64,000 bases of DNA from an uncultured bacterium (GTDB lineage: Bacteria > Muiribacteriota > Ozemobacteria > Ozemobacterales > Ozemobacteraceae): the NCBI GenBank assembly GCA_964472075.1, contig CAYYIY010000002.1, forward strand, positions 23,771-87,770. The letters run 5' to 3'. The notes under the pieces were generated by a model. That model was not told where the DNA came from. It saw nothing but the letters and a program-made list of their open reading frames with translations, and made no database searches. This document shows positions 12,743-54,456 of this stretch, in pieces. The position numbers and the translations under genes are program-made. The first letter of the stretch is position 1. Each line of letters starts with the position of its first letter.

Positions 12743-14803
12743 TCAGCGATAAGCCCAGACTTCTCCGAACTCGTCGGCATACAGGCGACGAGAGGGAGAC
12801 GCGAAGAACTCCGTCACGCGCTGTTTGTATCCAGGCTCTTCGATGATTTCGAGAAGGGTTCGATACCCGGTGCGCGGCAGATAGAGGAGGTCGATCTCGC
12901 ATCGTTCAAGATATTGCCTGACTTGATCGGCTTGGTCAGAGACGATCAGCGCCGAAATGAACGGGTACGGAATGAGTGACATCCAGGTAAACGGGCGGTG
13001 CAGATAATAGATGCGTTCTTCGAACAATGGCAATACACGCGTATGAGAGGCGGTTTCGCTGTTGATGAACTTGTACGATCCCATGAACGGAAGCTGCGCT
13101 CGCAGCAGTTCGTCGGCGCTTTGCTGCCCACGCGTATGCTCCGCAATCAAGGCATTCCGTGAGACGGAGAAGGCGACGGTCGTCGGTAATCCGGCGACGA
13201 GAACGGCGATGATCAGACGCCGGTATGAACTGTTGAATCCTGCCGTAACGCCGATCAGCACCGAAGCCAGGCCGATAGTGGGAAGAAGGAACCTGATCTG
13301 ATGAGAGCCGAGACTCCAGACCAGGCCGGAAAGGAGACACCCCCCAAACAGCAGGCGGTACCGGAGGTTCGCTGATGTGCCGGCGGCTTGCCAGAGGAGC
13401 AGGGGGAGGAGAGCAAGCGGCGCGAATCCGATCTGGCCGTCGAAGTAACGCAGAGATGTGCCCGCATCGTGAAGTCGGCCGTAGATCGTGACATCCCATG
13501 GAAGCCGCAGCAGCGAAAATAAGTCTCTTCCCATGCCGAAGCTTTCCAGCAGGAGTTCGTGACTGGACGCGAACGGCATCTCGACCTGGAAGGTATCGAG
13601 GAAAATCTGATGAAAGGCGGGAAGATACGGTCGGCTCGAGAAGAACCACCCGAGGTGCGGAAAGAACGGATTGCCGACCGTGAGCCAGTTGCGAATGTAC
13701 CAGGGACTTGCGAGCAGAATGACGGCAAGCCCGAACCAGAGAAGGGTTCGATGGGGGTGCGGGTCGCGTTTGCTCAGGAGTCCCGGCCAATGAAGAATTG
13801 CCGCAACACCCCCGATGGAAAAGACCGCCGGCAGAGCGCCTGAGGTTTTCACCTGGGCCGCATAACCGGCGAGAATCGAGAGACAAAGCAGTTGCGGGCG
13901 CATTTCATCGGGGGCGTGAACCGTAAGTTCAAAGAGGGCAAACAAGGCGGCGAGTACGAGATACAGGATGATGAGATCCGTGTAGGCGGTTCGCGTGAGC
14001 CAGGAAAGCTGCGGGTGCAGAAGAAATGCCAGGGCCGCACAATACCCGGCGGTGCGGTTCATTCGTCTGCCGATGATCAGTAATAGAAAACAGGCCGTCG
14101 TGAGCGGCAGAAGCCAGTTCAAGACGCGCATTGCCGAATCGTCACCTACCATGCCGACCCACGTCATGAAGAGGTGAAAGCTCTGGGGGCGATTGGCCGG
14201 AAAAAGATCGCCGAGAAAGCTCAACCGGCCGAGTTCGCGGTACAGCCGGGGAATGGCCAAATGATACACTTGATCGTCATACGCGAGGTCGGGGGCGGCG
14301 ACGCCGGGGAGATCGAGAGCAGCGATCAGAATGGCGAAGGCAAGCACGACACGGACGCCGAGCGGAGAGCAGAATCGGCCCAACTCCCCGAATATCTGCT
14401 TCCAGGGCGTACGCATGATACTGATCATCGAAAAACCGATGAGTACAAGTGCTGACACCATCGTGCTTGCGGGGGTAAAGCCGACCGTCGGTCCGAAAAG
14501 AAGTCCGCAGAGAGCGGCGGTCATGAGACCGGTGGGCAGGGCAGTCACGGCAGACAACAGGGTCTGTGGCGGGCAACCGAGCAGAATGAGCAGGCCATGC
14601 CCCGAGAACCAGCACAAACCGACAGCGGCGAAACCCGGCCACAGGCGCAGGATTGCCATGCTGTTCGGCAGCCTGAAGCCGTCTACAGGGAAGGAAAGCG
14701 GATGCCAGGCAAGATATGCGACAGCCACCACTGTGGCCCAGAGGGCGGTGAGCATGATGACCGCCGTCGGTGAGTGTCGATCGTCGCAGTGCTCTGTCAG
14801 CAT
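12743..14803 (-). CDS. Polytopic membrane protein, GT-C-like glycosyltransferase (ArnT/PMT-like)
   Basis: The 686-aa protein has 12 or more predicted TM helices. An acidic YDDQVYH motif lies in an early extracytoplasmic loop, and a large C-terminal soluble domain follows. The family assignment is tentative. Confidence 0.55.
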   Translation of the reverse strand: MLTEHCDDRHSPTAVIMLTALWATVVAVAYLAWHPLSFPVDGFRLPNSMAILRLWPGFAAVGLCWFSGHGLLILLGCPPQTLLSAVTALPTGLMTAALCGLLFGPTVGFTPASTMVSALVLIGFSMISIMRTPWKQIFGELGRFCSPLGVRVVLAFAILIAALDLPGVAAPDLAYDDQVYHLAIPRLYRELGRLSFLGDLFPANRPQSFHLFMTWVGMVGDDSAMRVLNWLLPLTTACFLLLIIGRRMNRTAGYCAALAFLLHPQLSWLTRTAYTDLIILYLVLAALFALFELTVHAPDEMRPQLLCLSILAGYAAQVKTSGALPAVFSIGGVAAILHWPGLLSKRDPHPHRTLLWFGLAVILLASPWYIRNWLTVGNPFFPHLGWFFSSRPYLPAFHQIFLDTFQVEMPFASSHELLLESFGMGRDLFSLLRLPWDVTIYGRLHDAGTSLRYFDGQIGFAPLALLPLLLWQAAGTSANLRYRLLFGGCLLSGLVWSLGSHQIRFLLPTIGLASVLIGVTAGFNSSYRRLIIAVLVAGLPTTVAFSVSRNALIAEHTRGQQSADELLRAQLPFMGSYKFINSETASHTRVLPLFEERIYYLHRPFTWMSLIPYPFISALIVSDQADQVRQYLERCEIDLLYLPRTGYRTLLEIIEEPGYKQRVTEFFASPSRRLYADEFGEVWAYR

Positions 14804-15098
14804 CGGTTCTGAACCCGCATCATTCCGTAGCTTCTCCGACTTGTCGGATACGGAAAACTATAGCGTACACATCATGATCTTGTCCTTTTTATTCCCCTCT
14901 CGCGAAATGTGCTACTATGAGTCGGCCACGGGCAGCGCCGGGCTGGTTCCGATCAGCGAACTGAAAACTGTCTGCGTCGGCGTTTCGCCGGCTTGGGTTC
15001 CGTCTCATGCGGGGAAATGTCCTGAACGTGAGTGGGAAAATTCGATAACCAGTGAAGCTGCCGCGATTTTCCGCAAATCAAATCCCCGGGAGAACAAC

Positions 15099-15890
15099 AT
15101 GAAGGTCGGATACAGAGCGGAGTTTGTGAAACGGTATCTCTTTGCCCTGCTGCGGATCCCCTTCCTCTTCAGTTTTGGGGTTGCGCAACGCAGCCATCGA
15201 CAACTCATCGCGGCGATTTGCCGACATTTCGGATATTTCACTCGCATGCAGGGTGTTTCCACCATCAAGCTGAAAGACCTGTTACCGGATTTTTCGCACG
15301 GTGAGATTTACGAACCGATCGGTACTTACGGTAGTCCGTGCGCAGAGGAGATCCTGATTATCAATGAGCTGGTCAAAAGGGCTCAGCCCAGAATGTTGTT
15401 TGAGTTCGGCACGTTCACCGGAAGAACGACCTTGAATCTGGCGGCGTGTTCCCCTGACGATGCGAGGGTGTTCACTCTCGACCTGAAGCATGAAGATCTT
15501 GGAAAGACGAAGTTCGCCATGTATGCAAGCGAAGAATTGTATGTGAACAAACCGGCATCGGGAACGAGCTTTGCAGCTTCGCCGTTTGCACGGAAAATTA
15601 CGCAACTGTATGGCGATTCCGCGGCCTTTGATTTTTCTCCGTGGCGAAACCAGATCGATTTCATTTTCATCGACGGCGCGCACACGTACGAGTATGTCTA
15701 CAACGATACCCGTCATGCCTTGGAGCTGCTGCGCGATGGTCGGGGAACGATCATCTGGCATGATTATCTGATGGTTGAAGGACTGACCCGCGCATTGAAC
15801 GAACTGGCCGCTCAAGAGCCGCGACTGAGAGGAATGAGGCATATTGAGGGAACGACCATGACCATCTGGCAAAGCGGGGTTCGTGACTGA
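15099..15890 (+). CDS. Class I SAM-dependent methyltransferase (O-methyltransferase-like, Methyltransf_24-type)
   Basis: Motifs LFEFGTFTGRTT, IFIDGAHTYEYV and TIIWHDY are present. The track ORF 14331..15890 was trimmed to the ATG at 15099 because its 5' part lies antisense inside the 12743..14803 gene. Confidence 0.75.
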   Translation: MKVGYRAEFVKRYLFALLRIPFLFSFGVAQRSHRQLIAAICRHFGYFTRMQGVSTIKLKDLLPDFSHGEIYEPIGTYGSPCAEEILIINELVKRAQPRMLFEFGTFTGRTTLNLAACSPDDARVFTLDLKHEDLGKTKFAMYASEELYVNKPASGTSFAASPFARKITQLYGDSAAFDFSPWRNQIDFIFIDGAHTYEYVYNDTRHALELLRDGRGTIIWHDYLMVEGLTRALNELAAQEPRLRGMRHIEGTTMTIWQSGVRD

Positions 15891-16124
15891 TACTCCGGCA
15901 TCTGCAACCGGGGTCCTGTACGCGGTGTGCGCGGCGGGGCGATTCTTTGCCATCGATGGGAGGTGTCGGCCGCACGAGATCTCTCGCGCCGGGTTGATGA
16001 CCGCTGTGTGCACGGGAAGCCGCCCTGCGCGGTAGAAGGCGTGATGCTGCTGTCGAATCGGCGTGATTTGGAGTATACTCACGCCGTCATATCAACGGAC
16101 TTTTCTGCGCAAGGGGTGAGCCGT

Positions 16125-17288
16125 ATGTCGCCTGTTCTTCGTCTTGTCGTCGTGCTGCTGTTGATCATCGGCGGGGTCTCGACACCATGTGTCAGCGCCG
16201 CTGAGCCGGCAGCGGAAGTGCGGATCGAGCGCGAGCTGTTTCCGCAGCCGTACCAGCGTTTGCTCGACGGATACGCGTATCCCGAAGATCGTCTTCTGGC
16301 ACTGTTTCGCTGCCTGTGCGTCGCTCGCAGTGATCCGCGGTTGAGTGAGGCCATCATCAGTCTCGAGCGGGCCATTGGCGAACTCATGCGTACCCAGAGC
16401 GCCCTGTTCCGTCATCAGATCATCATCGCCGAAAATCCGAAAGAGCGAATGAGAGAGTGGTTGACCTGGTGGTCGACCACGGCTCGCCGAGCCGAGACGG
16501 CGGCGTTTGCTCCGCTGTTTCAGATGATGACGGTTGATGAAAAGCGGCGTTTCGGCTTGGAAGAACTTGAAAAAGAGTCTCTGCAGCAGGAAAACGAACT
16601 GTATGACCCGGACTATCTTGCCGCGTATGCCGACGTGATTCCTGAACGTCACGAATTTACCAGGCAGATTCACAAGGTGTACTGGTGTGAAGAAAGCGTG
16701 ACTGATCCGCTTGAAAACCTGATGACACGATTGAAGTTCGCCTTTTCAACCGAGGAAGTGCTGCGTTACCTGGTGCGTCTGCGCGGTCGTATGACTGATG
16801 GGGCGCTGCGACAGGCTCTTGCGGCTTTGCAGGAGCGTCTGGTCGTGAATCTCATCGATGATATTGTTCATGAGAACAGTGTTTTGATCGACAATGGCCT
16901 GTACGGTTCGGAGATCGCCTTTATCGGAGTGACCTCGACCGGTAAACTGCTGATTCGCGAGTCGTTGATTCGCGGGCGATTGCAGCTGTTGGTGAAGCAT
17001 GCCCGGTCGATCGACACGAACATGGATAGAGAACTGTTTGTACCGATTGTCGAGCAGGTTGGGCGGCGCCTCGTCGAACTGGGGGCGAACTCAACCGAAT
17101 CCGTGAAACAGCATCTGCAGCATATGCGCGAACGATTGCTGGAAGTTGTGAGCGATATGAGTCGGGCAACCGCTCCCGCTGACAGCATGAACGATCTGGT
17201 ACTTTTTCGCAAAATGGGAGAGTATCTGGTCGCCGAAGATCGCAACACGCTGATGCGTGGCGCGCCCGTGTTGTTCGCCAAACCGTAA
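16125..17288 (+). CDS. Hypothetical secreted protein
   Basis: The in-frame ATG at 16125 precedes a signal peptide, MSPVLRLVVVLLLIIGGVSTPCVSAA. No recognisable domain was found. Confidence 0.5.
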   Translation: MSPVLRLVVVLLLIIGGVSTPCVSAAEPAAEVRIERELFPQPYQRLLDGYAYPEDRLLALFRCLCVARSDPRLSEAIISLERAIGELMRTQSALFRHQIIIAENPKERMREWLTWWSTTARRAETAAFAPLFQMMTVDEKRRFGLEELEKESLQQENELYDPDYLAAYADVIPERHEFTRQIHKVYWCEESVTDPLENLMTRLKFAFSTEEVLRYLVRLRGRMTDGALRQALAALQERLVVNLIDDIVHENSVLIDNGLYGSEIAFIGVTSTGKLLIRESLIRGRLQLLVKHARSIDTNMDRELFVPIVEQVGRRLVELGANSTESVKQHLQHMRERLLEVVSDMSRATAPADSMNDLVLFRKMGEYLVAEDRNTLMRGAPVLFAKP

Positions 17289-39710: not shown

Positions 39711-40736
39711 CTATTTTCCGGCGGCCCATTTGATTATAGGTTCAGCACGCCAGGGTAGTGACATCTGATTATGGCTGCGCAGGTTCTTGTGAAAGGCGGA
39801 CACTTCCGACAGTTTCTTCCAGTCGATGCGACCGCCGCGCAGGCCGTCGAAAGCGAGCAGCGTCAGTTCGTTCCAGGACTTGATCCACTGGCAGGCGAGA
39901 GCAGGGTTCCATTCCTGAAACTCGTCGACATCCTTTCGTACCAGCTGTTTGGCAAAGTGATGATACGCCGGGCGAATGGAGCGGGTCAGGTTCTGAATAC
40001 CAGATGAAACGCAGTTGGCCCCAAGAAAATGATATTTTTGCACTTCGGGCATGTCTGTCTTTTCGGGGTATTCGGCGCGCAGAGCGCGAATGGCCGTGAG
40101 AGCCGCCAGACGCGCCGCTTCTTCCGCTTCGGCGAGAAAGAACCCTACGATGTCGACGCGCTCGGGGTTCAGACGATTTCGCACTTTCGCTTCGAGCGGC
40201 TTTTTCCCTTGAAACGCCTCGAGAGAACTCGCGCGCATCTGTAACAGCTGAAAGCCGATCGTACCATCGATGCTGAACGCTTTCTCAGGACCAGTGCCCA
40301 TAATCAACTCGCGAATCTGCGTGGAACGGTTGCCGCGCTGATACAGGGTGATGCCTCTCTCGCCGAAATCAAACAGGGCGCCGAAATGAAACACCTTGGG
40401 CGCGATCGGCTGATTGATGACTTCAGCCGCAACGATCAATAGCGGGTCGATATCTGCCGACCACAGTTCATTCTTGTGAAAGATGTTGTCGATGCGGATT
40501 CTTCCGTCGGAAAGCAGGGACGCATGAGTTACGGCCCGGTCTCCCTTGGCGAAGATCAAACGATAGGCATACGGGTGCTTGAGAATGAACGGCGGGATCT
40601 CGACGCCGCAGACCGTCAGGGCCGGAAGATCGGAGGTCGGCGAGGGGCTGACCGAGCGCGCCAGAAGAAGCTGAGAGGGTGACGTCAGCGCGAGAGATAA
40701 CACGAGGATCAGGGTGGTGAGCGAAAGCCTTGGCAT
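39711..40736 (-). CDS. Hypothetical secreted protein
   Basis: A signal peptide is present (MPRLSLTTLILVLSLALTSPS). No recognisable motif was found. Confidence 0.5.
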   Translation of the reverse strand: MPRLSLTTLILVLSLALTSPSQLLLARSVSPSPTSDLPALTVCGVEIPPFILKHPYAYRLIFAKGDRAVTHASLLSDGRIRIDNIFHKNELWSADIDPLLIVAAEVINQPIAPKVFHFGALFDFGERGITLYQRGNRSTQIRELIMGTGPEKAFSIDGTIGFQLLQMRASSLEAFQGKKPLEAKVRNRLNPERVDIVGFFLAEAEEAARLAALTAIRALRAEYPEKTDMPEVQKYHFLGANCVSSGIQNLTRSIRPAYHHFAKQLVRKDVDEFQEWNPALACQWIKSWNELTLLAFDGLRGGRIDWKKLSEVSAFHKNLRSHNQMSLPWRAEPIIKWAAGK

Positions 40737-40738
40737 GA

Positions 40739-41104
40739 TTATCTACCTCCTTGGTTGCAGTCGCTGGATTGATGCAGTTGCGCGGGCGGCGTGCGATGGC
40801 GGCCGGTGTAAAAATCGAGTGAGCAGAAAGGGCAGGAATCGGCGGAAAGTTTGGTCATGGGTTTTCCGCAACTCGGACAGGTGATTCGTTTGTGGACCTG
40901 CAACAGAAGCCAGATCATCACCAGAAACAGAGGCAGAACGGGCCATGGGTCGCCGCCGCTGAAGCCGGTGAGATGTTCCGCGCCGATGAGCAGGAAAGGC
41001 AGACCGACAAGAATGACGAGGTTGCTGAACAACCAGAGTCGTCGTCGCCTGGCGGCTTCCTCTGCCAGATACTGATGTTTGCCGTCATCGTGTGTCTCAT
41101 CCAT
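40739..41104 (-). CDS. Small membrane protein with a C-terminal zinc-ribbon-like CxxC...CxxC
   Basis: Two TM helices are followed by CPSCGKPMTKLSADSCPFC. Confidence 0.45.
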   Translation of the reverse strand: MDETHDDGKHQYLAEEAARRRRLWLFSNLVILVGLPFLLIGAEHLTGFSGGDPWPVLPLFLVMIWLLLQVHKRITCPSCGKPMTKLSADSCPFCSLDFYTGRHRTPPAQLHQSSDCNQGGR

Positions 41105-41120
41105 GTTCGGCTACGTCGGC

Positions 41121-42266
41121 CTACTCGTCCAACACGTCGAGCAGCCAGTCGGCCGACGCCTCGGCAGATTCACCGTCGGGGCCGGTCCAGGTGCTGTCTC
41201 GAGAAACCTGGTTGCCGTCCTTTCCCCAGGTCACGTCATGCTGCGCGGTTTTCCCGGCGTCGTTTGTCCAGGTTGTCTGTTTCTTCCCGTCGCTCCAGGT
41301 CGTGCTTCCGTCCAATGTCTTCACTTTTCCATCTGGTCCGGTGACCGTGACGTCCTTGTCGACCTGTTTCCCGTCAACGGTGGTCACGGTCTGTACCGTA
41401 GTGGTCTTTCCCTCGGGCCCGGTCCAATGGCCGGTGGTCTGATACTGGTTTCCTTGTTTGGTCGTCGTACGGTCGAGATCGACGGTTTTGCCCTGCTGAT
41501 TTGTCCAGGTTTTGTCGGTATTCCAGGTGTTGCCCTCTCGGACGGTTTGTCCTTTCACATCCACCTGCCCGCCCTGGGGTCCGTTCCATTGGCCGGTCGT
41601 ATTCACGGTGTTGCCGTCGCGTGTCGTCGTCGACTGGTGCGTGACCTGCTTTCCCTGTTCGCCGGTCCAGGTTTTCTGCTCGTTGACGGTGTTGCCGTCT
41701 CGGGTGCGGGTGCCGTTGACCTGCGTTTCATGCCCCTTGGGGCCTGTCCAGGTGCCCTGCTGGTTCCAGGTGGTGCCGTTACGGGTGGTCGTGCCGCCGT
41801 AGGTGCTGGTGTTGCCGGCCGGACCGGTCACCTGTCCCTGGTTGTTCCATTGTTTCCGGCCGCCTCCGAGGGCTTCGAGCCGTTTCGCGATTTCCGGCAG
41901 GTTCTGTTGCAGGGAAGAGCGTGCTTCAGGATTCATGCCCTGAAAGTGGGCTTTCAGTTCGCCGAGCTTCTGCTGAAAAGCCGCCTGATCTCCGCTTTGC
42001 CTGGCCTCTCGCAACGCTTTGAGGCGTTCCTGAAACCCTTGAAACTGCGGGTTCGACTGCTGCATCTGCTGCCAGCGCTCGCGAAAGGCCTGCATCTTCT
42101 CGGCGTTTCCTTCGCCCCATTTGGCTTTCCACTGTTGCATCCGTTCCTGCCAGGTCCCTTGAGCGCCTTCGCCTTGTTGCCGGTTCTGCCGCTTCTCTTT
42201 CATCTTCTCGCGCCAGGTCCCGTCTTCGGCGTTTCCCTGTTGTCGGTTCTGCCACTTTTCCTTCAT
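41121..42266 (-). CDS. Tandem-repeat protein (Q/W-rich coiled region plus about 8 TWTGP-type repeats), downstream part
   Basis: Repeats of ~27 aa occur, for example GTWTGPKGHETQVNGTRTRDGNTVNEQ, KTWTGEQGKQV..., GHWTGPEGK... and VTVTGPDGK.... The N-terminal part has WxEKxQxRQQ repeats. This ORF is in the same frame as 42276..42491 and is separated from it only by a single TGA. Confidence 0.55.
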   Translation of the reverse strand: MKEKWQNRQQGNAEDGTWREKMKEKRQNRQQGEGAQGTWQERMQQWKAKWGEGNAEKMQAFRERWQQMQQSNPQFQGFQERLKALREARQSGDQAAFQQKLGELKAHFQGMNPEARSSLQQNLPEIAKRLEALGGGRKQWNNQGQVTGPAGNTSTYGGTTTRNGTTWNQQGTWTGPKGHETQVNGTRTRDGNTVNEQKTWTGEQGKQVTHQSTTTRDGNTVNTTGQWNGPQGGQVDVKGQTVREGNTWNTDKTWTNQQGKTVDLDRTTTKQGNQYQTTGHWTGPEGKTTTVQTVTTVDGKQVDKDVTVTGPDGKVKTLDGSTTWSDGKKQTTWTNDAGKTAQHDVTWGKDGNQVSRDSTWTGPDGESAEASADWLLDVLDE

Positions 42267-42440
42267 CCTGTCTCGTCAGGTCCCGCCTTCAGCGCTTTCG
42301 GTCTGCTGGTTTTGCCTGCGCTCCTGCAGCTTTTCCTTCCAGGCCGCCTGCCCGGAACCGCTTTGCTGACGGTTCTGCAACCTTTCCTTCCAGGCTCCGC
42401 GGCCGGCATTCTGTGCCGGCAGGTTGGTGATCGTGCCCAG
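41180..42440 (-). repeat. Coding tandem repeats of ~54-81 nt
   Basis: Repeated DNA units such as GGACCTGGCGCGAGAAGATGAAAGAGAAGCGGCAGAACCGGCAACAAGG and GGCC..GGTCCAGGTG.. appear on the complementary strand. They correspond to the peptide repeats. Confidence 0.6.
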
Positions 42441-42491
42441 AATCAGGCTGCATACAATGACGCTCAACAGAAGACAACGGTTCATGATCAA
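42276..42491 (-). CDS. Signal peptide plus first WKE(K/R)LQ repeats, the N-terminal fragment of the same repeat protein
   Basis: MIMNRCLLLSVIVCSLILGTITNLPAQNA is a signal peptide. It is followed by AWKERLQNRQQ and AWKEKLQERRQNQQ repeats that continue beyond the in-frame TGA into 41121..42266. Confidence 0.5.
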   Translation of the reverse strand: MIMNRCLLLSVIVCSLILGTITNLPAQNAGRGAWKERLQNRQQSGSGQAAWKEKLQERRQNQQTESAEGGT

Positions 42492-42758
42492 CCTCCGCGC
42501 ATAGGTATTCCGCTTGGCGAGGACTTGTACGTAGTATAGCCGCTGCCGGCTCGAGAGAAAAGAGCGGCGTTCACTTCATAAGGTCATTTCGTGCTCCATC
42601 GTTTTTCCGTCGGCAACGACGAATCGCTGAGCGATGCCGGCGGGAAAACAGAGTTTCGAGAGAACGAAAATGACCTTGTCATACGCACTGGGACAACGTG
42701 GTCCCTTCGCCCGCCGAGAGAACGCCCCTTTGTCATGCAATTCTCAGAGCGTGCGAGA

Positions 42759-43251: not shown

Positions 43252-45558
43252 CTAGAACAACGGCTTCAGGAAGCCGAGTTTCGAGCAGAGCTTCACCAGC
43301 CACATCTTCTTTGACTCGATGTTCTCGGGCCCGAATTCAGGGGTGGTCGCCGTCGCTAACCGGTACTCTTTCGACTTCGCCATCGCGGCCATGATGTCAC
43401 GACGCACTTCGCGAGCGAACTCCACCGACTTGATAACGGCCACAACCTCGCTGTTTACCTTCTCGCTGAGAAAATCGAAGTTGTACGTACCGATGATACT
43501 GATCTGTCCGTCGAAGACGAAGTTCTTGGCGTGCAACTGCCCGGCGCTGACGCGAGCGAACATGCGGCAGGTCGGCATGTTCTTGAGCATGGTGCGCCAT
43601 TCACTCATGATGATGCCTTCCGTCGGGAAACTGTCGGAAGTCTCCGGGCTGTTGGTATGGATGTAGATCGGTACACCGCGTCGCGCCGCGCGTTTGAGCG
43701 CCGCTTCAGCACGTGGGGTCAGTACGATGTACGGGTTCTGAATGATGATCTCTTTCTTGCTGCCGTCGATGAAGCGAATGAGCGCTTCGGTGATGTCATT
43801 ACGCGGACCCGAGAGCGAATGCTTGTCGAGAATCTTGACCGGGCAGCGATGGGCGCTGCCGAACGGGTCGAACGTCGGATACCCGATCATGTTCTTATAC
43901 TGAGTGAGCTTGTCGTTGAACTCTTTGAGTTTGTCGGCGATCTCGCGACCGGCTTTGGCCGGATTGAGCAGTGGCCGTCGGTTCAGGGCGGCATTCATCG
44001 TGGTATAGGCGGCATCGAGCAGCCGCAGCTTGCTGTCATGAGATTCATCCTTGCCGACCTCGTAGGCTTTCAGCAGGCTGAACTCTTCGACGAAAGCCCG
44101 GTCGAGTTGCCCGGCGACAGCCTCGCTGTCAATGACGACGTCGCAATCGAGCCAGGCGGCTTTGTCGTCGATCGGGTCGACCAGATACTCGTCGGCGATG
44201 TTGCGTCCGCCGATGATGGCATATCGACCGTCGACCACCACGATCTTGTCATGGTTGCTGGAAACGATGCGGCGGATGTCGGTGAACATCGAGACCAGAT
44301 TGCTCTGAATTGGGTTGTACACCTTGATCTCGACGTTCGGAAAGCGCAGCATGACCCGCAGATAATCTCGCGCCCAGAGCGGGGTTGCGAATTTCGTGGT
44401 GCCGCGCGCGTCGACCATCAGCCTGATCTTAACGCCCTGCCGTGCTTTTTGTACCAGGTGTCCGAGGAACGAATAGCCGAAAATATCGTTTTCAATGATG
44501 AAATACTGAATGTCGATGCTCTCGCGCGCCTCGCTGAGAAACTTCCAGCGGGCATACCAGGCATCATAGTTGTTATACAGCAGTTTTATCGAGGCTTGAT
44601 CATCTGATACCAGCCCGTTGTTATCATTCACCGACTGGTACTCATCGAAAACCTTGTCGACCGGCGGCGCGAACGGAGCACCCATCTCCTCAAACCAGAG
44701 TTGGAAATCGCTTTCCTTGTTCTGCGCGCGAATGAAAGAAACGGATGTGGCGAGATATCTGGTCCAGCGAGCGAGCTTCACCGGCAGGGCCAGCCAGGAA
44801 GTCTCCTTGTACTTCTTGAAGGCCTCGTTCATGGCGGCGGCCTTGTCGTTGACCGACTTCTTCCAGACCAGGCGATCGCCCATGGCGTTGTTGTATTTGA
44901 TGCGCAGTTTCGCATAGATGCCCCAGCGGCCTGAATCCGGGTCGTCCGCGACTTCCTGATACAGTTTATTGGCCAGCGCACGACTGCCGAGAACCTCGTC
45001 ACAGGCTTTCGCCAGCTCATACTTGATGCGACTGCGATCAGGCAGGTTCGGATTGGCGGCCAGATATGCGGTGATCTGTCCGACAATGGCTTCGGCATAC
45101 TGCTGTGAAGGTCGGGCTTTCAGGGCATTCATCAGTTGCTGAATGTTCGCGCTGAACGTGGCGGGGTCGTCGTCTCTAAACCCGGTGGCCGATGATTGGT
45201 TCGGAGAATCAGGGATTCCAAGGGTCGAAGCGGAATCGTCGGACGCTCCGGCGTCGGCCGAAGACAGGTGGGAGCCGGTCGAGGCAAGGGCCGTTCCAGC
45301 CCCCGCGGACGGCAGCGACTGAATATAGGTTTCCTTGGCGACCTGGTAGTCGCGCAGGGCCTTTTCGATCTCGGCGGCGGGTGCCTGGCGTGCGATGGCG
45401 CTCTGATATGCCTGATACGCGCTCGAATACGCCCGAAATGCCTGCGTGGAACTATCTTCCGCCCAGGCGACTGAGAAGATCGAAACGACCATCAGGAGCA
45501 TTGTCAGTAGTCGATTTTTCCGCATCATAAACGCCTCTTTTGCCACAGACTGTCTCAT
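43252..45558 (-). CDS. Phospholipase D-family protein (two HKD motifs) with a signal peptide and a TPR-like N-terminal region
   Basis: HKD motifs are NHDKIVVVDGRYAIIGGRN and LHAKNFVFDGQISIIGTYNFD. The signal peptide is MMRKNRLLTMLLMVVSIFSVAWA. Confidence 0.8.
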   Translation of the reverse strand: MRQSVAKEAFMMRKNRLLTMLLMVVSIFSVAWAEDSSTQAFRAYSSAYQAYQSAIARQAPAAEIEKALRDYQVAKETYIQSLPSAGAGTALASTGSHLSSADAGASDDSASTLGIPDSPNQSSATGFRDDDPATFSANIQQLMNALKARPSQQYAEAIVGQITAYLAANPNLPDRSRIKYELAKACDEVLGSRALANKLYQEVADDPDSGRWGIYAKLRIKYNNAMGDRLVWKKSVNDKAAAMNEAFKKYKETSWLALPVKLARWTRYLATSVSFIRAQNKESDFQLWFEEMGAPFAPPVDKVFDEYQSVNDNNGLVSDDQASIKLLYNNYDAWYARWKFLSEARESIDIQYFIIENDIFGYSFLGHLVQKARQGVKIRLMVDARGTTKFATPLWARDYLRVMLRFPNVEIKVYNPIQSNLVSMFTDIRRIVSSNHDKIVVVDGRYAIIGGRNIADEYLVDPIDDKAAWLDCDVVIDSEAVAGQLDRAFVEEFSLLKAYEVGKDESHDSKLRLLDAAYTTMNAALNRRPLLNPAKAGREIADKLKEFNDKLTQYKNMIGYPTFDPFGSAHRCPVKILDKHSLSGPRNDITEALIRFIDGSKKEIIIQNPYIVLTPRAEAALKRAARRGVPIYIHTNSPETSDSFPTEGIIMSEWRTMLKNMPTCRMFARVSAGQLHAKNFVFDGQISIIGTYNFDFLSEKVNSEVVAVIKSVEFAREVRRDIMAAMAKSKEYRLATATTPEFGPENIESKKMWLVKLCSKLGFLKPLF

Positions 45559-53030: not shown

Positions 53031-53059
53031 TTGATTCGACTCATCTGCTCAATTATGAT
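53031..53059 (+). promoter_or_regulatory. Putative sigma-70 promoter for the FadL-like gene
   Basis: TTGATT, a 17-nt spacer, then TATGAT. It lies ~45 nt upstream of the ATG at 53104. Confidence 0.4.
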
Positions 53060-53103
53060 CGACTACCACTATGTACCGTATCACTTTTCAGCGGGAGAGA
53101 ATC

Positions 53104-54456
53104 ATGATGCGTTTCGTTCGTTGGAGCCTGGTGTTGTTTTTGTTTCTGCAGTCTGTCAGTTCGTTCGGCGCCGGATTCATGGTTCGCGAACATTCGCAGG
53201 CTTCTCTCGGTAGTGCGTTTGCCGGAGTTCATGCCGGCTCTCATGACCTTGCCGACATGTTTTTCAACCCTGCTGCATTGTACTATCAACCCGACCGGGC
53301 AGCGTTGGTCGGTATGGCCGGCATGATGCCGAAAGCGAAGTTCCGCCTTTCCTCAGCGACGACCTTCAACGGTACGGCCGTGACCGGAACCCCCGGCGGG
53401 GAAAACATCGGTGAGGATGCCGTGATTCCTTCGTTGTATCTGGCTCAACCTTCCTGCAAGGGCTGGCGACTCGGACTTTCGGTGAATGCTCCCTGGGGGC
53501 TTTCCACCAAGTGTGACCCGAATTGGGTGGGCCGCTATTATGCGATCGATTCGAAGTTGACGTCGCTGAACGTCATGCCGACCCTGGCGCGTCGACTCAG
53601 CCCTCGCTGGGTGGGCGGGTTCGGCCTGCAGATGCAGAAGCTTGATGCGAAGCTCACCAACGCGATCGATTACGGAACCATCGGCGCGGCTGTGCCGCCG
53701 GCGCAGGGAGGGCCGATTCCCGGTGCCGTGCCGACGACACAGGACGGTCTGGCTGAGTTGAAGGGTGACGACTGGGGATACGGGTTTGTGCTTGGTTTCA
53801 TGTATGAGGCCTCGCCGAAGACGCGCCTCGGGTTCTCGTATCGTTCGAAAGTTGATCAGAATCTGAAGGGAACGGCGACTTTCTACCCCGATGCCGCCGG
53901 GATCAAGAACGTACTTACGGCTGCCGGCGGCGCGTTCGCGACCACCGGGGCGCAGGCCGCCGTGACTACGCCCGAAGTCGTGGGGTTCGGCATGAAGCAC
54001 GAGATGACCGCCTCTCTGACCATGGTTCTCGACGCGGTCTGGAACCGCTGGAGCCGGTACAAGGGATTGACCGTGTATTTCGACAATCCGTCGCAGGCGT
54101 CGTCTCGTGTTCAGGAAGACTGGCACGATGTCTGGTTGACGTCGATCGGCTTCTTGTACAAACTCGCTCCAAAATGGACGCTGCGTGCCGGGTATGCGGT
54201 CGATCGTTCTCCGATTCCTGATGAGCACCGCGTCCCCCGCATTCCCGGCTCGGACGGACGCTTCGCTTCGATCGGCGCCCGCTACCAGGCGTCGCCGCGG
54301 TGTCATGTCGATGTCGGCTACATGCACATCAATTACGACAAAGCTCCGATCATGCTGAAAAGCACCGATCCGGACAGCCTGTTCCGTGGCAATCTGAGCG
54401 GCAGCTTTTCAAACAGCTTCAGGATTCTGGGCGCGCAGATCGCCTGGAACTGGTAG
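53104..54456 (+). CDS. Outer-membrane transport protein of the FadL/TodX (OmpP1) family
   Basis: The signal peptide is MMRFVRWSLVLFLFLQSVSSFGA. The N-terminus AGFMVREHSQASLGSAFAGVHA plus NPAAL is typical of FadL. A beta-barrel pattern follows. The track start was trimmed to 53104. Confidence 0.75.
   Translation: MMRFVRWSLVLFLFLQSVSSFGAGFMVREHSQASLGSAFAGVHAGSHDLADMFFNPAALYYQPDRAALVGMAGMMPKAKFRLSSATTFNGTAVTGTPGGENIGEDAVIPSLYLAQPSCKGWRLGLSVNAPWGLSTKCDPNWVGRYYAIDSKLTSLNVMPTLARRLSPRWVGGFGLQMQKLDAKLTNAIDYGTIGAAVPPAQGGPIPGAVPTTQDGLAELKGDDWGYGFVLGFMYEASPKTRLGFSYRSKVDQNLKGTATFYPDAAGIKNVLTAAGGAFATTGAQAAVTTPEVVGFGMKHEMTASLTMVLDAVWNRWSRYKGLTVYFDNPSQASSRVQEDWHDVWLTSIGFLYKLAPKWTLRAGYAVDRSPIPDEHRVPRIPGSDGRFASIGARYQASPRCHVDVGYMHINYDKAPIMLKSTDPDSLFRGNLSGSFSNSFRILGAQIAWNW

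What the first reader, a model, noticed from the sequence alone, without database searches (positions are those of the whole stretch)
41121..42491. Secreted tandem-repeat protein whose repeat array reads straight through an in-frame TGA
On the minus strand, the 71-aa ORF 42276..42491 (signal peptide plus AWKERLQNRQQ / AWKEKLQERRQNQQ repeats) and the 381-aa ORF 41121..42266 (MKEKWQNRQQ..., WREKMKEKRQNRQQ..., then about 8 TWTGP(D/E/K)GK-type 27-aa repeats) are in the same frame. They are separated by a single TGA at 42276-42278 and three sense codons (R-D-R). The peptide repeat periodicity continues uninterrupted across the stop. This indicates one ancestral gene of ~456 codons that now carries either a nonsense mutation, a sequencing error within tandem DNA repeats, or a recoded or read-through TGA. 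The repeat composition, rich in W, Q, T, G and N with TWTGP, resembles no family I can name.
Basis: seen in the sequence. Interest (0 to 1): 0.6.

Follow-up and report, generated by a model that had tools for sequence, protein, structure and literature searches.

The report
Secreted-protein gene broken by one stop codon
One gene for a secreted repeat protein of unknown function has had a tryptophan codon (TGG) turned into a stop (TGA) by a single, very recent base change; this is an ordinary broken gene, or possibly an assembly error, and not a recoding signal.

Summary
On the minus strand, 42485..41121 is one reading frame with a single TGA at 42276-42278. That TGA lies inside a 63-nt tandem repeat.

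The interpretation "one ancestral gene" is also right. A close relative (L003, 82% amino-acid identity) has one unbroken 455-codon gene with TGG (Trp) exactly where the window has TGA. At least 16 more distant family members are each a single reading frame with a signal peptide and no internal stop.

The next repeat unit in the window itself also has TGG at that position. The cause is therefore one G-to-A transition in a Trp codon.

Recoding is not supported:
- TGA is the commonest normal stop in the window.
- There is no SECIS-like hairpin and no Rfam match.
- The stop is not conserved in relatives.

The rest of the gene is undecayed (dN/dS 0.06, no frameshifts). The change is therefore very recent, or it is a consensus error in this metagenome-assembled genome.

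Leaky reading of UGA-C by tRNA-Trp would restore the original residue, so some full-length protein may still be made. This is inference, not shown.

The protein belongs to a rare, unannotated family, probably from Ozemobacteraceae/Riflebacteria. It has a signal peptide, Trp-periodic helices, nine 27-residue Thr-rich hairpins predicted as an 18-strand barrel, and a C-terminal DWxxDxL motif followed by one or two acidic residues.

The parts
42492..42496 (-). Shine-Dalgarno GGAGG, six bases upstream of the start codon.
   Evidence: Read from the sequence.
42483..42485 (-). True ATG start of the gene. The TTG at 42491 listed by the ORF tool is an upstream in-frame alternative.
   Evidence: The 69-aa product from this ATG is in the public protein collection for the 191,456-bp source contig; the 71-aa version is not.
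42414..42485 (-). Signal peptide MNRCLLLSVIVCSLILGTITNLPA, with predicted cleavage before Q25 (an A-Q site).
   Evidence: Sequence. Orthologs have the same layout ending in ...A-Q or ...G-Q. The cleavage site is inferred, not tested.
42153..42392 (-). Variable N-terminal region of four Trp-initiated, K/Q/R-rich helical units of 18-22 residues (AWKERLQNRQQ..., AWKEKLQERRQNQQ..., *RDRMKEKWQNRQQ..., WREKMKEKRQNRQQ...).
   Evidence: Predicted helical but with low confidence (pLDDT about 60). Length and sequence differ among orthologs.
42157..42299 (-). 63-nt tandem DNA repeat (2.2 copies, 77% matches) that contains the stop codon.
42276..42278 (-). In-frame TGA (context ACC TGA CGA) replacing the Trp codon TGG of repeat unit 3.
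   Evidence: L003 has TGG at the aligned codon. Repeat unit 4 in the window has TGG.
42264..42266 (-). ATG (Met) 9 nt after the stop. It is a possible re-initiation codon, but only AGG lies directly against it as a ribosome-binding site, and the product would lack the signal peptide.
   Evidence: It is CTC (Leu) in L003. Repeat unit 4 has Met at the same position in the window and Leu in L003, so it was not created as a start.
41868..42152 (-). Conserved helical core (WQERMQQWKAKWGEGNAEKMQ...QSNP...SGD...MNPE...LPEIAKRLEAL); five to six amphipathic helices.
   Evidence: Conserved in all family members. pLDDT 80-92.
41142..41858 (-). Nine 27-residue Thr/Gly/Asn/Gln-rich beta-hairpin repeats (G-N-T-[WVY]-N-x-x-[GK]-T-W-T-G-P-x-G-K-x-V-x...T-T-T-R-D), making 18 strands.
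   Evidence: The model matches 18-19-strand barrels. Strand faces are polar.
41124..41150 (-). Conserved C-terminal motif DWLLDVLDE (family pattern: D/E-W-x-x-D/E-x-L or I, followed by one or two acidic residues).
   Evidence: Modelled as disordered (pLDDT 29-41).
41121..41123 (-). Normal TAG stop of the gene.

Best explanation
Window 42485..41121 (minus strand) is one gene of 454 sense codons for a Sec-exported protein. One G-to-A transition changed the Trp codon TGG of the third N-terminal repeat unit into TGA.

The organism uses the standard code, so RF2 normally ends translation there. That yields only a 69-residue pre-peptide (signal peptide plus 45 residues). The 381 downstream codons hold every conserved part of the protein and are no longer joined to the signal peptide. 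This allele is therefore a loss-of-function or strongly reduced allele, that is, a nascent pseudogene.

The change is evolutionarily very young, because the downstream part shows no decay.

Inferred, not shown: UGA followed by C is a weak terminator, and the near-cognate tRNA that misreads UGA is tRNA-Trp. A small fraction of ribosomes should therefore read through and produce the exact ancestral protein, which would soften the defect. Re-initiation at ATG 42266 could also occur, but its product would stay in the cytoplasm.
For: Shown:
- One frame with a single TGA.
- The TGA lies in a 63-nt tandem repeat whose neighbouring unit has TGG at the same place.
- The closest relative, L003 (82% amino-acid identity), has one unbroken 455-codon ORF with TGG at the aligned codon.
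- At least 16 further relatives are single ORFs with an N-terminal signal peptide and no internal stop.
- TGA is the commonest stop in the window (45 of 74 long open frames). It ends pgk and the sigma-54 activator at their normal C-termini.
- A crude screen for same-frame open stretches on both sides of one stop, with one candidate pair inspected, turned up no other interrupted gene.
- Between the window and L003, the 381 downstream codons have dN/dS 0.063 at dS 1.33, with no frameshift.
- In a three-sequence comparison of the last 143 codons, the window branch has dN/dS 0.089, against 0.088 and 0.128 for the other two branches.
- ATG 42266 has no spaced Shine-Dalgarno and is Leu in L003.
- The source's own gene call stops at the TGA: the 69-aa product is in the protein collection.

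From the literature: Trp-tRNA-Trp competes with RF2 at UGA (PMC10570021). That UGA-C is the weakest E. coli stop signal is from my memory of Poole, Brown and Tate 1995, which is listed in the references of PMC9841425. I could not read that paper.
Against: No reads and no second assembly of the same species were available, so a true mutation cannot be separated from a consensus error. The complete lack of decay downstream is also what an error or a tolerated, functional stop would give. Readthrough and re-initiation are inferred from E. coli knowledge and were not measured in this lineage.
Confidence: 0.68

Rival explanations
1. Assembly or consensus artefact. The real genome has TGG and the gene is intact. 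The A at the third codon position is a base-call or polishing error, or a minority variant picked up in a metagenome-assembled genome.
For: - The source appears to be a metagenome-derived contig of an uncultured Ozemobacteraceae-type bacterium.
- The site lies within tandem repeats.
- The rest of the gene is perfectly conserved (dN/dS 0.06), which is what an intact gene would show.
- The truncated 69-aa product occurs in only one record among about 15 billion proteins.
Against: - The two repeat units are only 77% alike, so read mis-placement is unlikely. Copying from the neighbouring unit would give TGG, not TGA.
- The limited screen showed no other broken gene, which suggests good consensus quality.
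- From general knowledge, real nonsense alleles are commoner per genome than consensus substitutions that create stops in short-read assemblies.
Confidence: 0.17
2. Functional leaky stop or site-specific Trp decoding. The organism reads this UGA as Trp at useful efficiency, for example through the weak UGA-C context or a tRNA-Trp variant with a 4-bp anticodon stem. The stop then acts as an expression throttle rather than a lesion.
For: - The stop replaces Trp, which is exactly the residue that UGA misreading inserts.
- The next base is C.
- The downstream ORF is undecayed.
- Bacterial tRNA-Trp variants with a 4-bp anticodon stem are reported to be widespread, and one was shown to read through UGA in E. 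coli (PMC13092985).
Against: - The stop is not conserved. The closest relative has TGG, and no family member read here has an in-frame stop.
- No stimulatory RNA structure follows it: the fold z-score is -1.67 and 14 of 200 shuffles fold as well.
- There is no Rfam match.
- TGA is the main ordinary stop in the window.
- No tRNA gene lies in the window to examine.
Confidence: 0.08
3. Selenocysteine codon. The UGA is decoded as Sec with the help of a downstream SECIS hairpin.
For: The only support is that the in-frame stop is UGA.
Against: - The homologous residue is Trp, not Cys or Sec, both in the neighbouring repeat unit and in the ortholog.
- No hairpin starts in the 10-40 nt after the UGA.
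- There is no Rfam hit at E up to 1.
- The site is in a low-confidence, variable helical repeat of a secreted protein, not in a redox motif.
Confidence: 0.01
4. Two genuine genes: a small secreted peptide (69 aa) and a separate 381-aa protein started at ATG 42266 by translational coupling.
For: An ATG lies 9 nt after the stop. The source's gene call has the 69-aa product.
Against: - Every ortholog is one gene.
- The ATG is Leu in L003.
- There is no spaced ribosome-binding site.
- The 381-aa product would lack the signal peptide found in every family member whose N-terminus is present.
- No start variant of the downstream ORF is in the protein collection.
Confidence: 0.03

Closest known systems
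Nonsense-mutation pseudogene (a gene annotated with an 'internal stop')
   Same: A single in-frame stop at a codon that is a sense codon in orthologs. It separates the export signal from the functional part, and the standard code applies.
   Different: There is no second lesion and no relaxation of selection, so it is at the very start of pseudogenisation, or is not real.
Near-cognate UGA readthrough by tRNA-Trp in bacteria (RF2 versus Trp-tRNA-Trp competition; Engelberg-Kulka 1981, Poole et al. 1995, PMC10570021)
   Same: The stop is UGA, the following base is C, and the ancestral residue is Trp. Background readthrough would therefore rebuild the wild-type protein.
   Different: Nothing shows that readthrough is selected or efficient here. 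The stop is not conserved and has no stimulatory element.
Eighteen- to nineteen-stranded membrane beta-barrels (VDAC1 3emn, Tom40, OccD/OprD porins 3t24)
   Different: There is no hydrophobic lipid-facing belt: GRAVY is -1.38 and LIFVMYW make up 15%, against 33% in the window's own FadL. The C-terminus is acidic rather than an aromatic beta-signal. Sequence identity is 3-10% and no porin Pfam matches.
Beta-flower / Tubby C-terminal clan (Pfam CL0395; PF21784-PF21786; Durairaj et al. 2023, PMC10584680)
   Same: A soluble barrel built from tandem beta-hairpin 'petals'. Hairpin tips resemble the [DNEQ]xxG motif (here R-D-G-N and G-P-x-G), and helices could be enclosed. One family member gives a weak hit to PF21786 (E 8.6e-5).
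   Different: There are nine hairpins and 18 long strands, against 4-6 hairpins and 8-12 short strands. Only 1 of 23 members hits, and its score relative to Pfam's cut-off was not shown.

Membership tests
Nonsense-disrupted gene (pseudogene) | In-frame stop where orthologs have a sense codon. | tested here: met
   TGA in the window against TGG in L003. At least 16 other relatives are uninterrupted.
Nonsense-disrupted gene (pseudogene) | Relaxed selection or further lesions downstream of the stop. | tested here: not met
   dN/dS is 0.063 over 381 codons, with no frameshift. The window branch has dN/dS 0.089, the same as sister branches. The lesion is therefore recent, or is an error.
Selenoprotein gene (bacterial Sec-UGA) | SECIS hairpin immediately 3' of the UGA. 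| tested here: not met
   The fold of 42200-42290 has only a 4-bp stem that includes the UGA plus a weak, bulged distal stem (z -1.67). Rfam gives no match at E up to 1.
Selenoprotein gene (bacterial Sec-UGA) | Cys or Sec at the aligned position in homologs. | tested here: not met
   Trp in L003 and in the neighbouring repeat unit.
UGA-to-Trp or UGA-to-Gly reassigned code (tables 4 and 25) | UGA is not used as a terminator, and in-frame UGAs occur across many genes. | tested here: not met
   TGA ends 45 of 74 long open frames, including pgk and the sigma-54 activator at their normal ends. A limited screen found no other interrupted gene in 64 kb. G+C is 54-62%.
Programmed stop-codon readthrough | The stop codon is conserved among orthologs. 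| tested here: not met
   TGG in the closest relative, and no in-frame stop in any other relative read here.
Programmed stop-codon readthrough | Leaky context or a stimulatory downstream structure. | tested here: inconclusive
   The UGA-C context is present. No significant structure follows.
Outer-membrane beta-barrel porin (OprD/Occ-like, VDAC-like) | Closed barrel of 16-19 antiparallel strands. | tested here: met
Outer-membrane beta-barrel porin (OprD/Occ-like, VDAC-like) | Alternating hydrophobic, lipid-facing residues and aromatic girdles. | tested here: not met
   In nearly every strand one face is T/N/Q/D and the other is V/W mixed with K/R/G. Mean hydropathy is mostly below zero.
Outer-membrane beta-barrel porin (OprD/Occ-like, VDAC-like) | C-terminal beta-signal ending in an aromatic residue. 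| tested here: not met
   The protein ends ...SADWLLDVLDE, and most full-length family members read end in one or two acidic residues after a D/E-W-x-x-D/E-x-L/I motif.
Beta-flower / Tubby clan CL0395 | Significant match to PF21784, PF21785 or PF21786. | tested here: inconclusive
   Only 1 of 23 family members matches PF21786 (E 8.6e-5). The window protein does not match.
Beta-flower / Tubby clan CL0395 | Barrel encloses a hydrophobic helix. | not testable with these tools
   Model coordinates could not be inspected. Only secondary structure and fold matches were returned.

The most novel reading that the evidence does not exclude
The UGA is kept and read as Trp at a useful rate in this Ozemobacteraceae/Riflebacteria-type bacterium, through the weak UGA-C context or a UGA-reading tRNA-Trp variant. 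It would then act as a throttle on a secreted protein.

Separately, that protein's family may be a previously undescribed water-soluble 18-strand, Thr-coated hairpin-repeat barrel wrapped around amphipathic helices, like a greatly enlarged Tubby or beta-flower fold.
Probability: 0.07. Interest if true: 0.55.

Novelty: new member of a known kind. Interest (0 to 1): 0.22.

Why it matters
As a recoding candidate it matters little. It is a textbook single-base nonsense change at a Trp codon, and annotation should join the two ORFs into one gene marked 'internal stop'.

It has two modest uses:
- It is a clean natural case where background UGA misreading by tRNA-Trp would regenerate the wild-type protein. 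That makes it a convenient test for residual expression from a young nonsense allele.
- It draws attention to a rare, unannotated secreted protein family. Only 62 representatives score E up to 0.001 among 1.84 billion proteins. Its predicted porin-sized but fully polar barrel is unusual and would be worth a structure.

Tried and rejected
- **Selenocysteine:** rejected. No hairpin, no Rfam hit, and Trp in homologs.
- **Alternative genetic code:** rejected from stop usage and normal gene ends.
- **Other interrupted genes in the window:** 146 same-frame pairs of open stretches were listed. The one pair of two long ORFs that I inspected (14331-15890 and 15927-17288) is simply two adjacent genes. 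The rest were judged by eye to be gene boundaries or shadow frames.
- **Function from gene neighbourhood:** only the 341-aa downstream gene is shared, and only with the close relatives L003 and L013. Distant loci share no neighbours.
- **Membrane porin:** rejected on composition.
- **A second assembly of the same species, to check the base:**
  - The window's own contig is not retrievable.
  - Members of the 90%-identity cluster of the neighbouring gene (L009-L012) are only about 79% identical in DNA and extend away from the locus.
  - L013 covers only the last 144 codons.
  - Neither the intact 454-aa version nor any of nine start variants of the downstream ORF is in the protein collection.
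- **P0001/L001:** useless for the N-terminus. That 1.5-kb contig joins what looks to me like the C-terminus of a glutamate dehydrogenase (not checked with a tool) in frame to the repeat.
- the afdb50 fold library was unavailable. Poole et al. 1995 could not be read. The last profile search added nothing. No taxonomy entry was found for Ozemobacter.

Full report
**1. The observation**

On the minus strand, translating 42491..41121 gives one frame with one internal stop. The sequence ruler places the TGA at 42278..42276. It is preceded by GGG ACC and followed by CGA GAC AGG ATG.

The ORF tool starts the upstream ORF at TTG 42491 (71 aa). However, GGAGG lies six bases before ATG 42485. The 69-aa product from that ATG is the one present in the public protein collection for a 191,456-bp NCBI contig. 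ATG 42485 is therefore the start.

Tandem Repeats Finder reports a 63-nt repeat at 42157-42299 (2.2 copies, 77% matches) that contains the stop. As peptides, the two units read AEGGT*RDRMKEKWQNRQQ and AEDGTWREKMKEKRQNRQQ. The stop therefore sits exactly on the periodic Trp, and TGA differs from TGG by one G-to-A transition.

Downstream there are nine, not eight, 27-residue units in register.

**2. Relatives**

The word-indexed protein search found only two homologs. One of them, P0001, lies on a 1.5-kb contig. Its 5' end joins what looks to me like the C-terminus of a glutamate dehydrogenase to the repeat, so it says nothing about the N-terminus.

Scanning genome contigs gave L002. There the same species' gene starts with a signal peptide and AWREK/AMQEQ repeats and has no stop.

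Scanning metagenome contigs gave L003. It holds one 455-codon ORF, 82% identical to the window protein over its whole length, with TGG at the codon aligned to the window's TGA. The same scan gave four more distant loci, L004-L007, each with a single ORF and a signal peptide.

An exhaustive HMMER search of 1.84 billion representatives found 62 proteins at E up to 0.001, 10 of them at E up to 1e-30. Of the twelve I read, ten have an N-terminal signal peptide. The other two are P0005, which lacks its N-terminus, and P0014, which I did not assess. All twelve are uninterrupted.

L003 has CTC where the window has that ATG.

**3. What the TGA is**

The genetic code is standard:
- TGA closes 45 of 74 long open frames in the window.
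- It ends pgk and a sigma-54 activator at their normal C-termini.
- G+C is 54-62%.
- A coarse screen found no other interrupted gene.

Selenocysteine is not supported:
- Homologs have Trp, not Cys.
- The 90 nt around and after the stop fold no better than 14 of 200 shuffles (z -1.67).
- Rfam gives nothing at E up to 1.

Programmed readthrough is not supported, because the stop is not conserved.

What remains is a one-base TGG-to-TGA change, either real or introduced during assembly.

**4. Age of the change**

Between the window and L003, the 381 codons after the stop have dN/dS 0.063 at dS 1.33, with no frameshift. The mature part before the stop has dN/dS 0.17.

A third close sequence, L013, allows a branch comparison over the last 143 codons. 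The window branch has dN 0.076 and dS 0.857 (ratio 0.089). The sister branches have ratios of 0.088 and 0.128.

By my estimate, a neutral phase of more than a few percent of that branch would have raised the ratio visibly. The stop is therefore very young, or not real, or tolerated.

**5. Consequences (inferred)**

Termination at the TGA leaves a 69-residue pre-peptide. The conserved helical core, the hairpin repeats and the C-terminal motif are cut off from the signal peptide.

ATG 42266 lies 9 nt downstream, but only AGG sits directly against it. Any re-initiation product would be cytoplasmic.

UGA is read at low frequency by Trp-tRNA-Trp in competition with RF2 (PMC10570021). From my own knowledge of Poole, Brown and Tate 1995, UGA-C is the weakest stop signal in E. 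coli. That paper is listed in PMC9841425 but could not be read.

Readthrough here would restore the ancestral Trp, so a little wild-type protein may persist. None of this has been measured.

**6. Real mutation or error**

The neighbouring 341-aa protein is 100% identical to P0063, which lies on a 191,456-bp NCBI contig. A member of its 90%-identity cluster is named 'MAG TPA ... Candidatus Ozemobacteraceae bacterium', and more distant relatives are named Riflebacteria. The source is thus most likely a metagenome-assembled genome.

No second assembly of the same species could be found, so this question stays open.

I favour a real allele, at roughly 4 to 1, for three reasons:
- The two repeat units are only 77% alike.
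- Copying from the neighbouring unit would give TGG, not TGA.
- No other broken gene turned up in the rest of the window.

**7. The protein**

Pfam and NCBIfam give no family. A profile search of PDB sequences gives only chance-level hits.

AlphaFold2 with a 23-sequence alignment gives mean pLDDT 86 and pTM 0.60. The model has:
- eight helices in residues 1-133. The variable Trp-repeat part scores about 60 and the conserved core 80-92;
- 18 antiparallel strands in residues 138-375, with pLDDT 91-98 over most of them and 81-89 in the first and last few.

The strands are polar, however. In nearly every strand one face is T/N/Q/D and the other mixes V/W with K/R/G. GRAVY is -1.38. Only 15% of residues are LIFVMYW, against 33% in the window's own FadL homolog. 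The C-terminus is acidic. Membership of the membrane porins therefore fails.

My best guess is a soluble, exported hairpin-repeat barrel with a Thr-rich outer surface. Its V/W face may pack on the amphipathic helices, resembling the beta-flower/Tubby arrangement (PMC10584680) on a larger scale. This is inference, supported only by a weak PF21786 hit in one member. The model may also over-close a hairpin array.

Function is unknown. The only conserved neighbour is the uncharacterised 341-aa secreted protein, and it is shared only with close relatives.

**8. Verdict**

The explanation is ordinary: a very recent nonsense change, or a consensus error, at a Trp codon in one gene of an unannotated secreted repeat-protein family. 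Interest is low. The residual novelty lies in the protein family and in the small chance that the stop is functionally leaky.

Noticed in passing
window 40739-41104 (minus strand): A 121-aa ORF with two predicted membrane helices and a CxxC...CxxC zinc-ribbon sits between the target gene and the 341-aa gene. In the close relatives L003 and L013 the two genes are directly adjacent, so about 370 bp is an insertion in the window lineage or a deletion in the others. The product is in the protein collection as a singleton.
   Followed up: partly
L001 1-140 (GCA_022711295.1, JAKLFI010001383.1): This 1.5-kb contig joins what looks to me like the C-terminus of a glutamate dehydrogenase, in frame, to the ortholog at an 'AARKAAW' repeat. 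L002, from the same species, shows the true N-terminus. It is probably an assembly chimera caused by the repeat, and it produces a false 357-aa protein (P0001) in public databases.
   Followed up: partly
L009-L012, position 1-3 of each: Four contigs from different assemblies (ENA, two JGI metagenomes, one NCBI MAG) all begin at the same point inside the homolog of the 341-aa gene. This suggests a recurrent assembly break there, from a repeat or strain variation. They are only about 79% identical in DNA to the window.
   Followed up: no
window 41079-42539 (plus strand): A 486-aa antisense ORF with no stop runs across the whole target gene, and equivalents exist opposite the orthologs. It is a shadow frame of the biased Q/K/T/G codon content and could mislead gene callers. 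No product for the downstream 381-aa ORF was found in the protein collection.
   Followed up: partly
window 41124-41150 and the C-termini of L003-L007 and most of P0003-P0016: Most full-length family members read end in a short conserved motif: D/E-W-x-x-D/E-x-L or I, followed by one or two acidic residues. It is modelled as disordered. It may be a docking or sorting signal.
   Followed up: no
window 43252-45558 (minus strand) and 53059-54456 (plus strand): A secreted 768-aa protein with two phospholipase-D domains lies 0.8 kb upstream of the target, and a FadL/TodX outer-membrane transporter lies 10 kb away. The helical part of the target gives chance-level hits to apolipoprotein A-I. A lipid-related role is a thought only, and the synteny is not conserved in distant relatives.
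   Followed up: partly
window 14331-15890 and 15927-17288 (plus strand): Two long ORFs lie in the same frame, separated by a single TGA at 15888-15890. The second has its own signal-peptide-like start well downstream. The first overlaps a 686-aa gene on the other strand at its 5' end. They look like ordinary adjacent genes, not a second interrupted gene.
   Followed up: partly
window 39711-40736 (minus strand): This 341-aa secreted protein has no Pfam or NCBIfam match. It has 23 homologs in Ozemobacteraceae/Riflebacteria-type assemblies, and lies directly downstream of the target in L003 and L013. It is a possible functional partner.
   Followed up: partly
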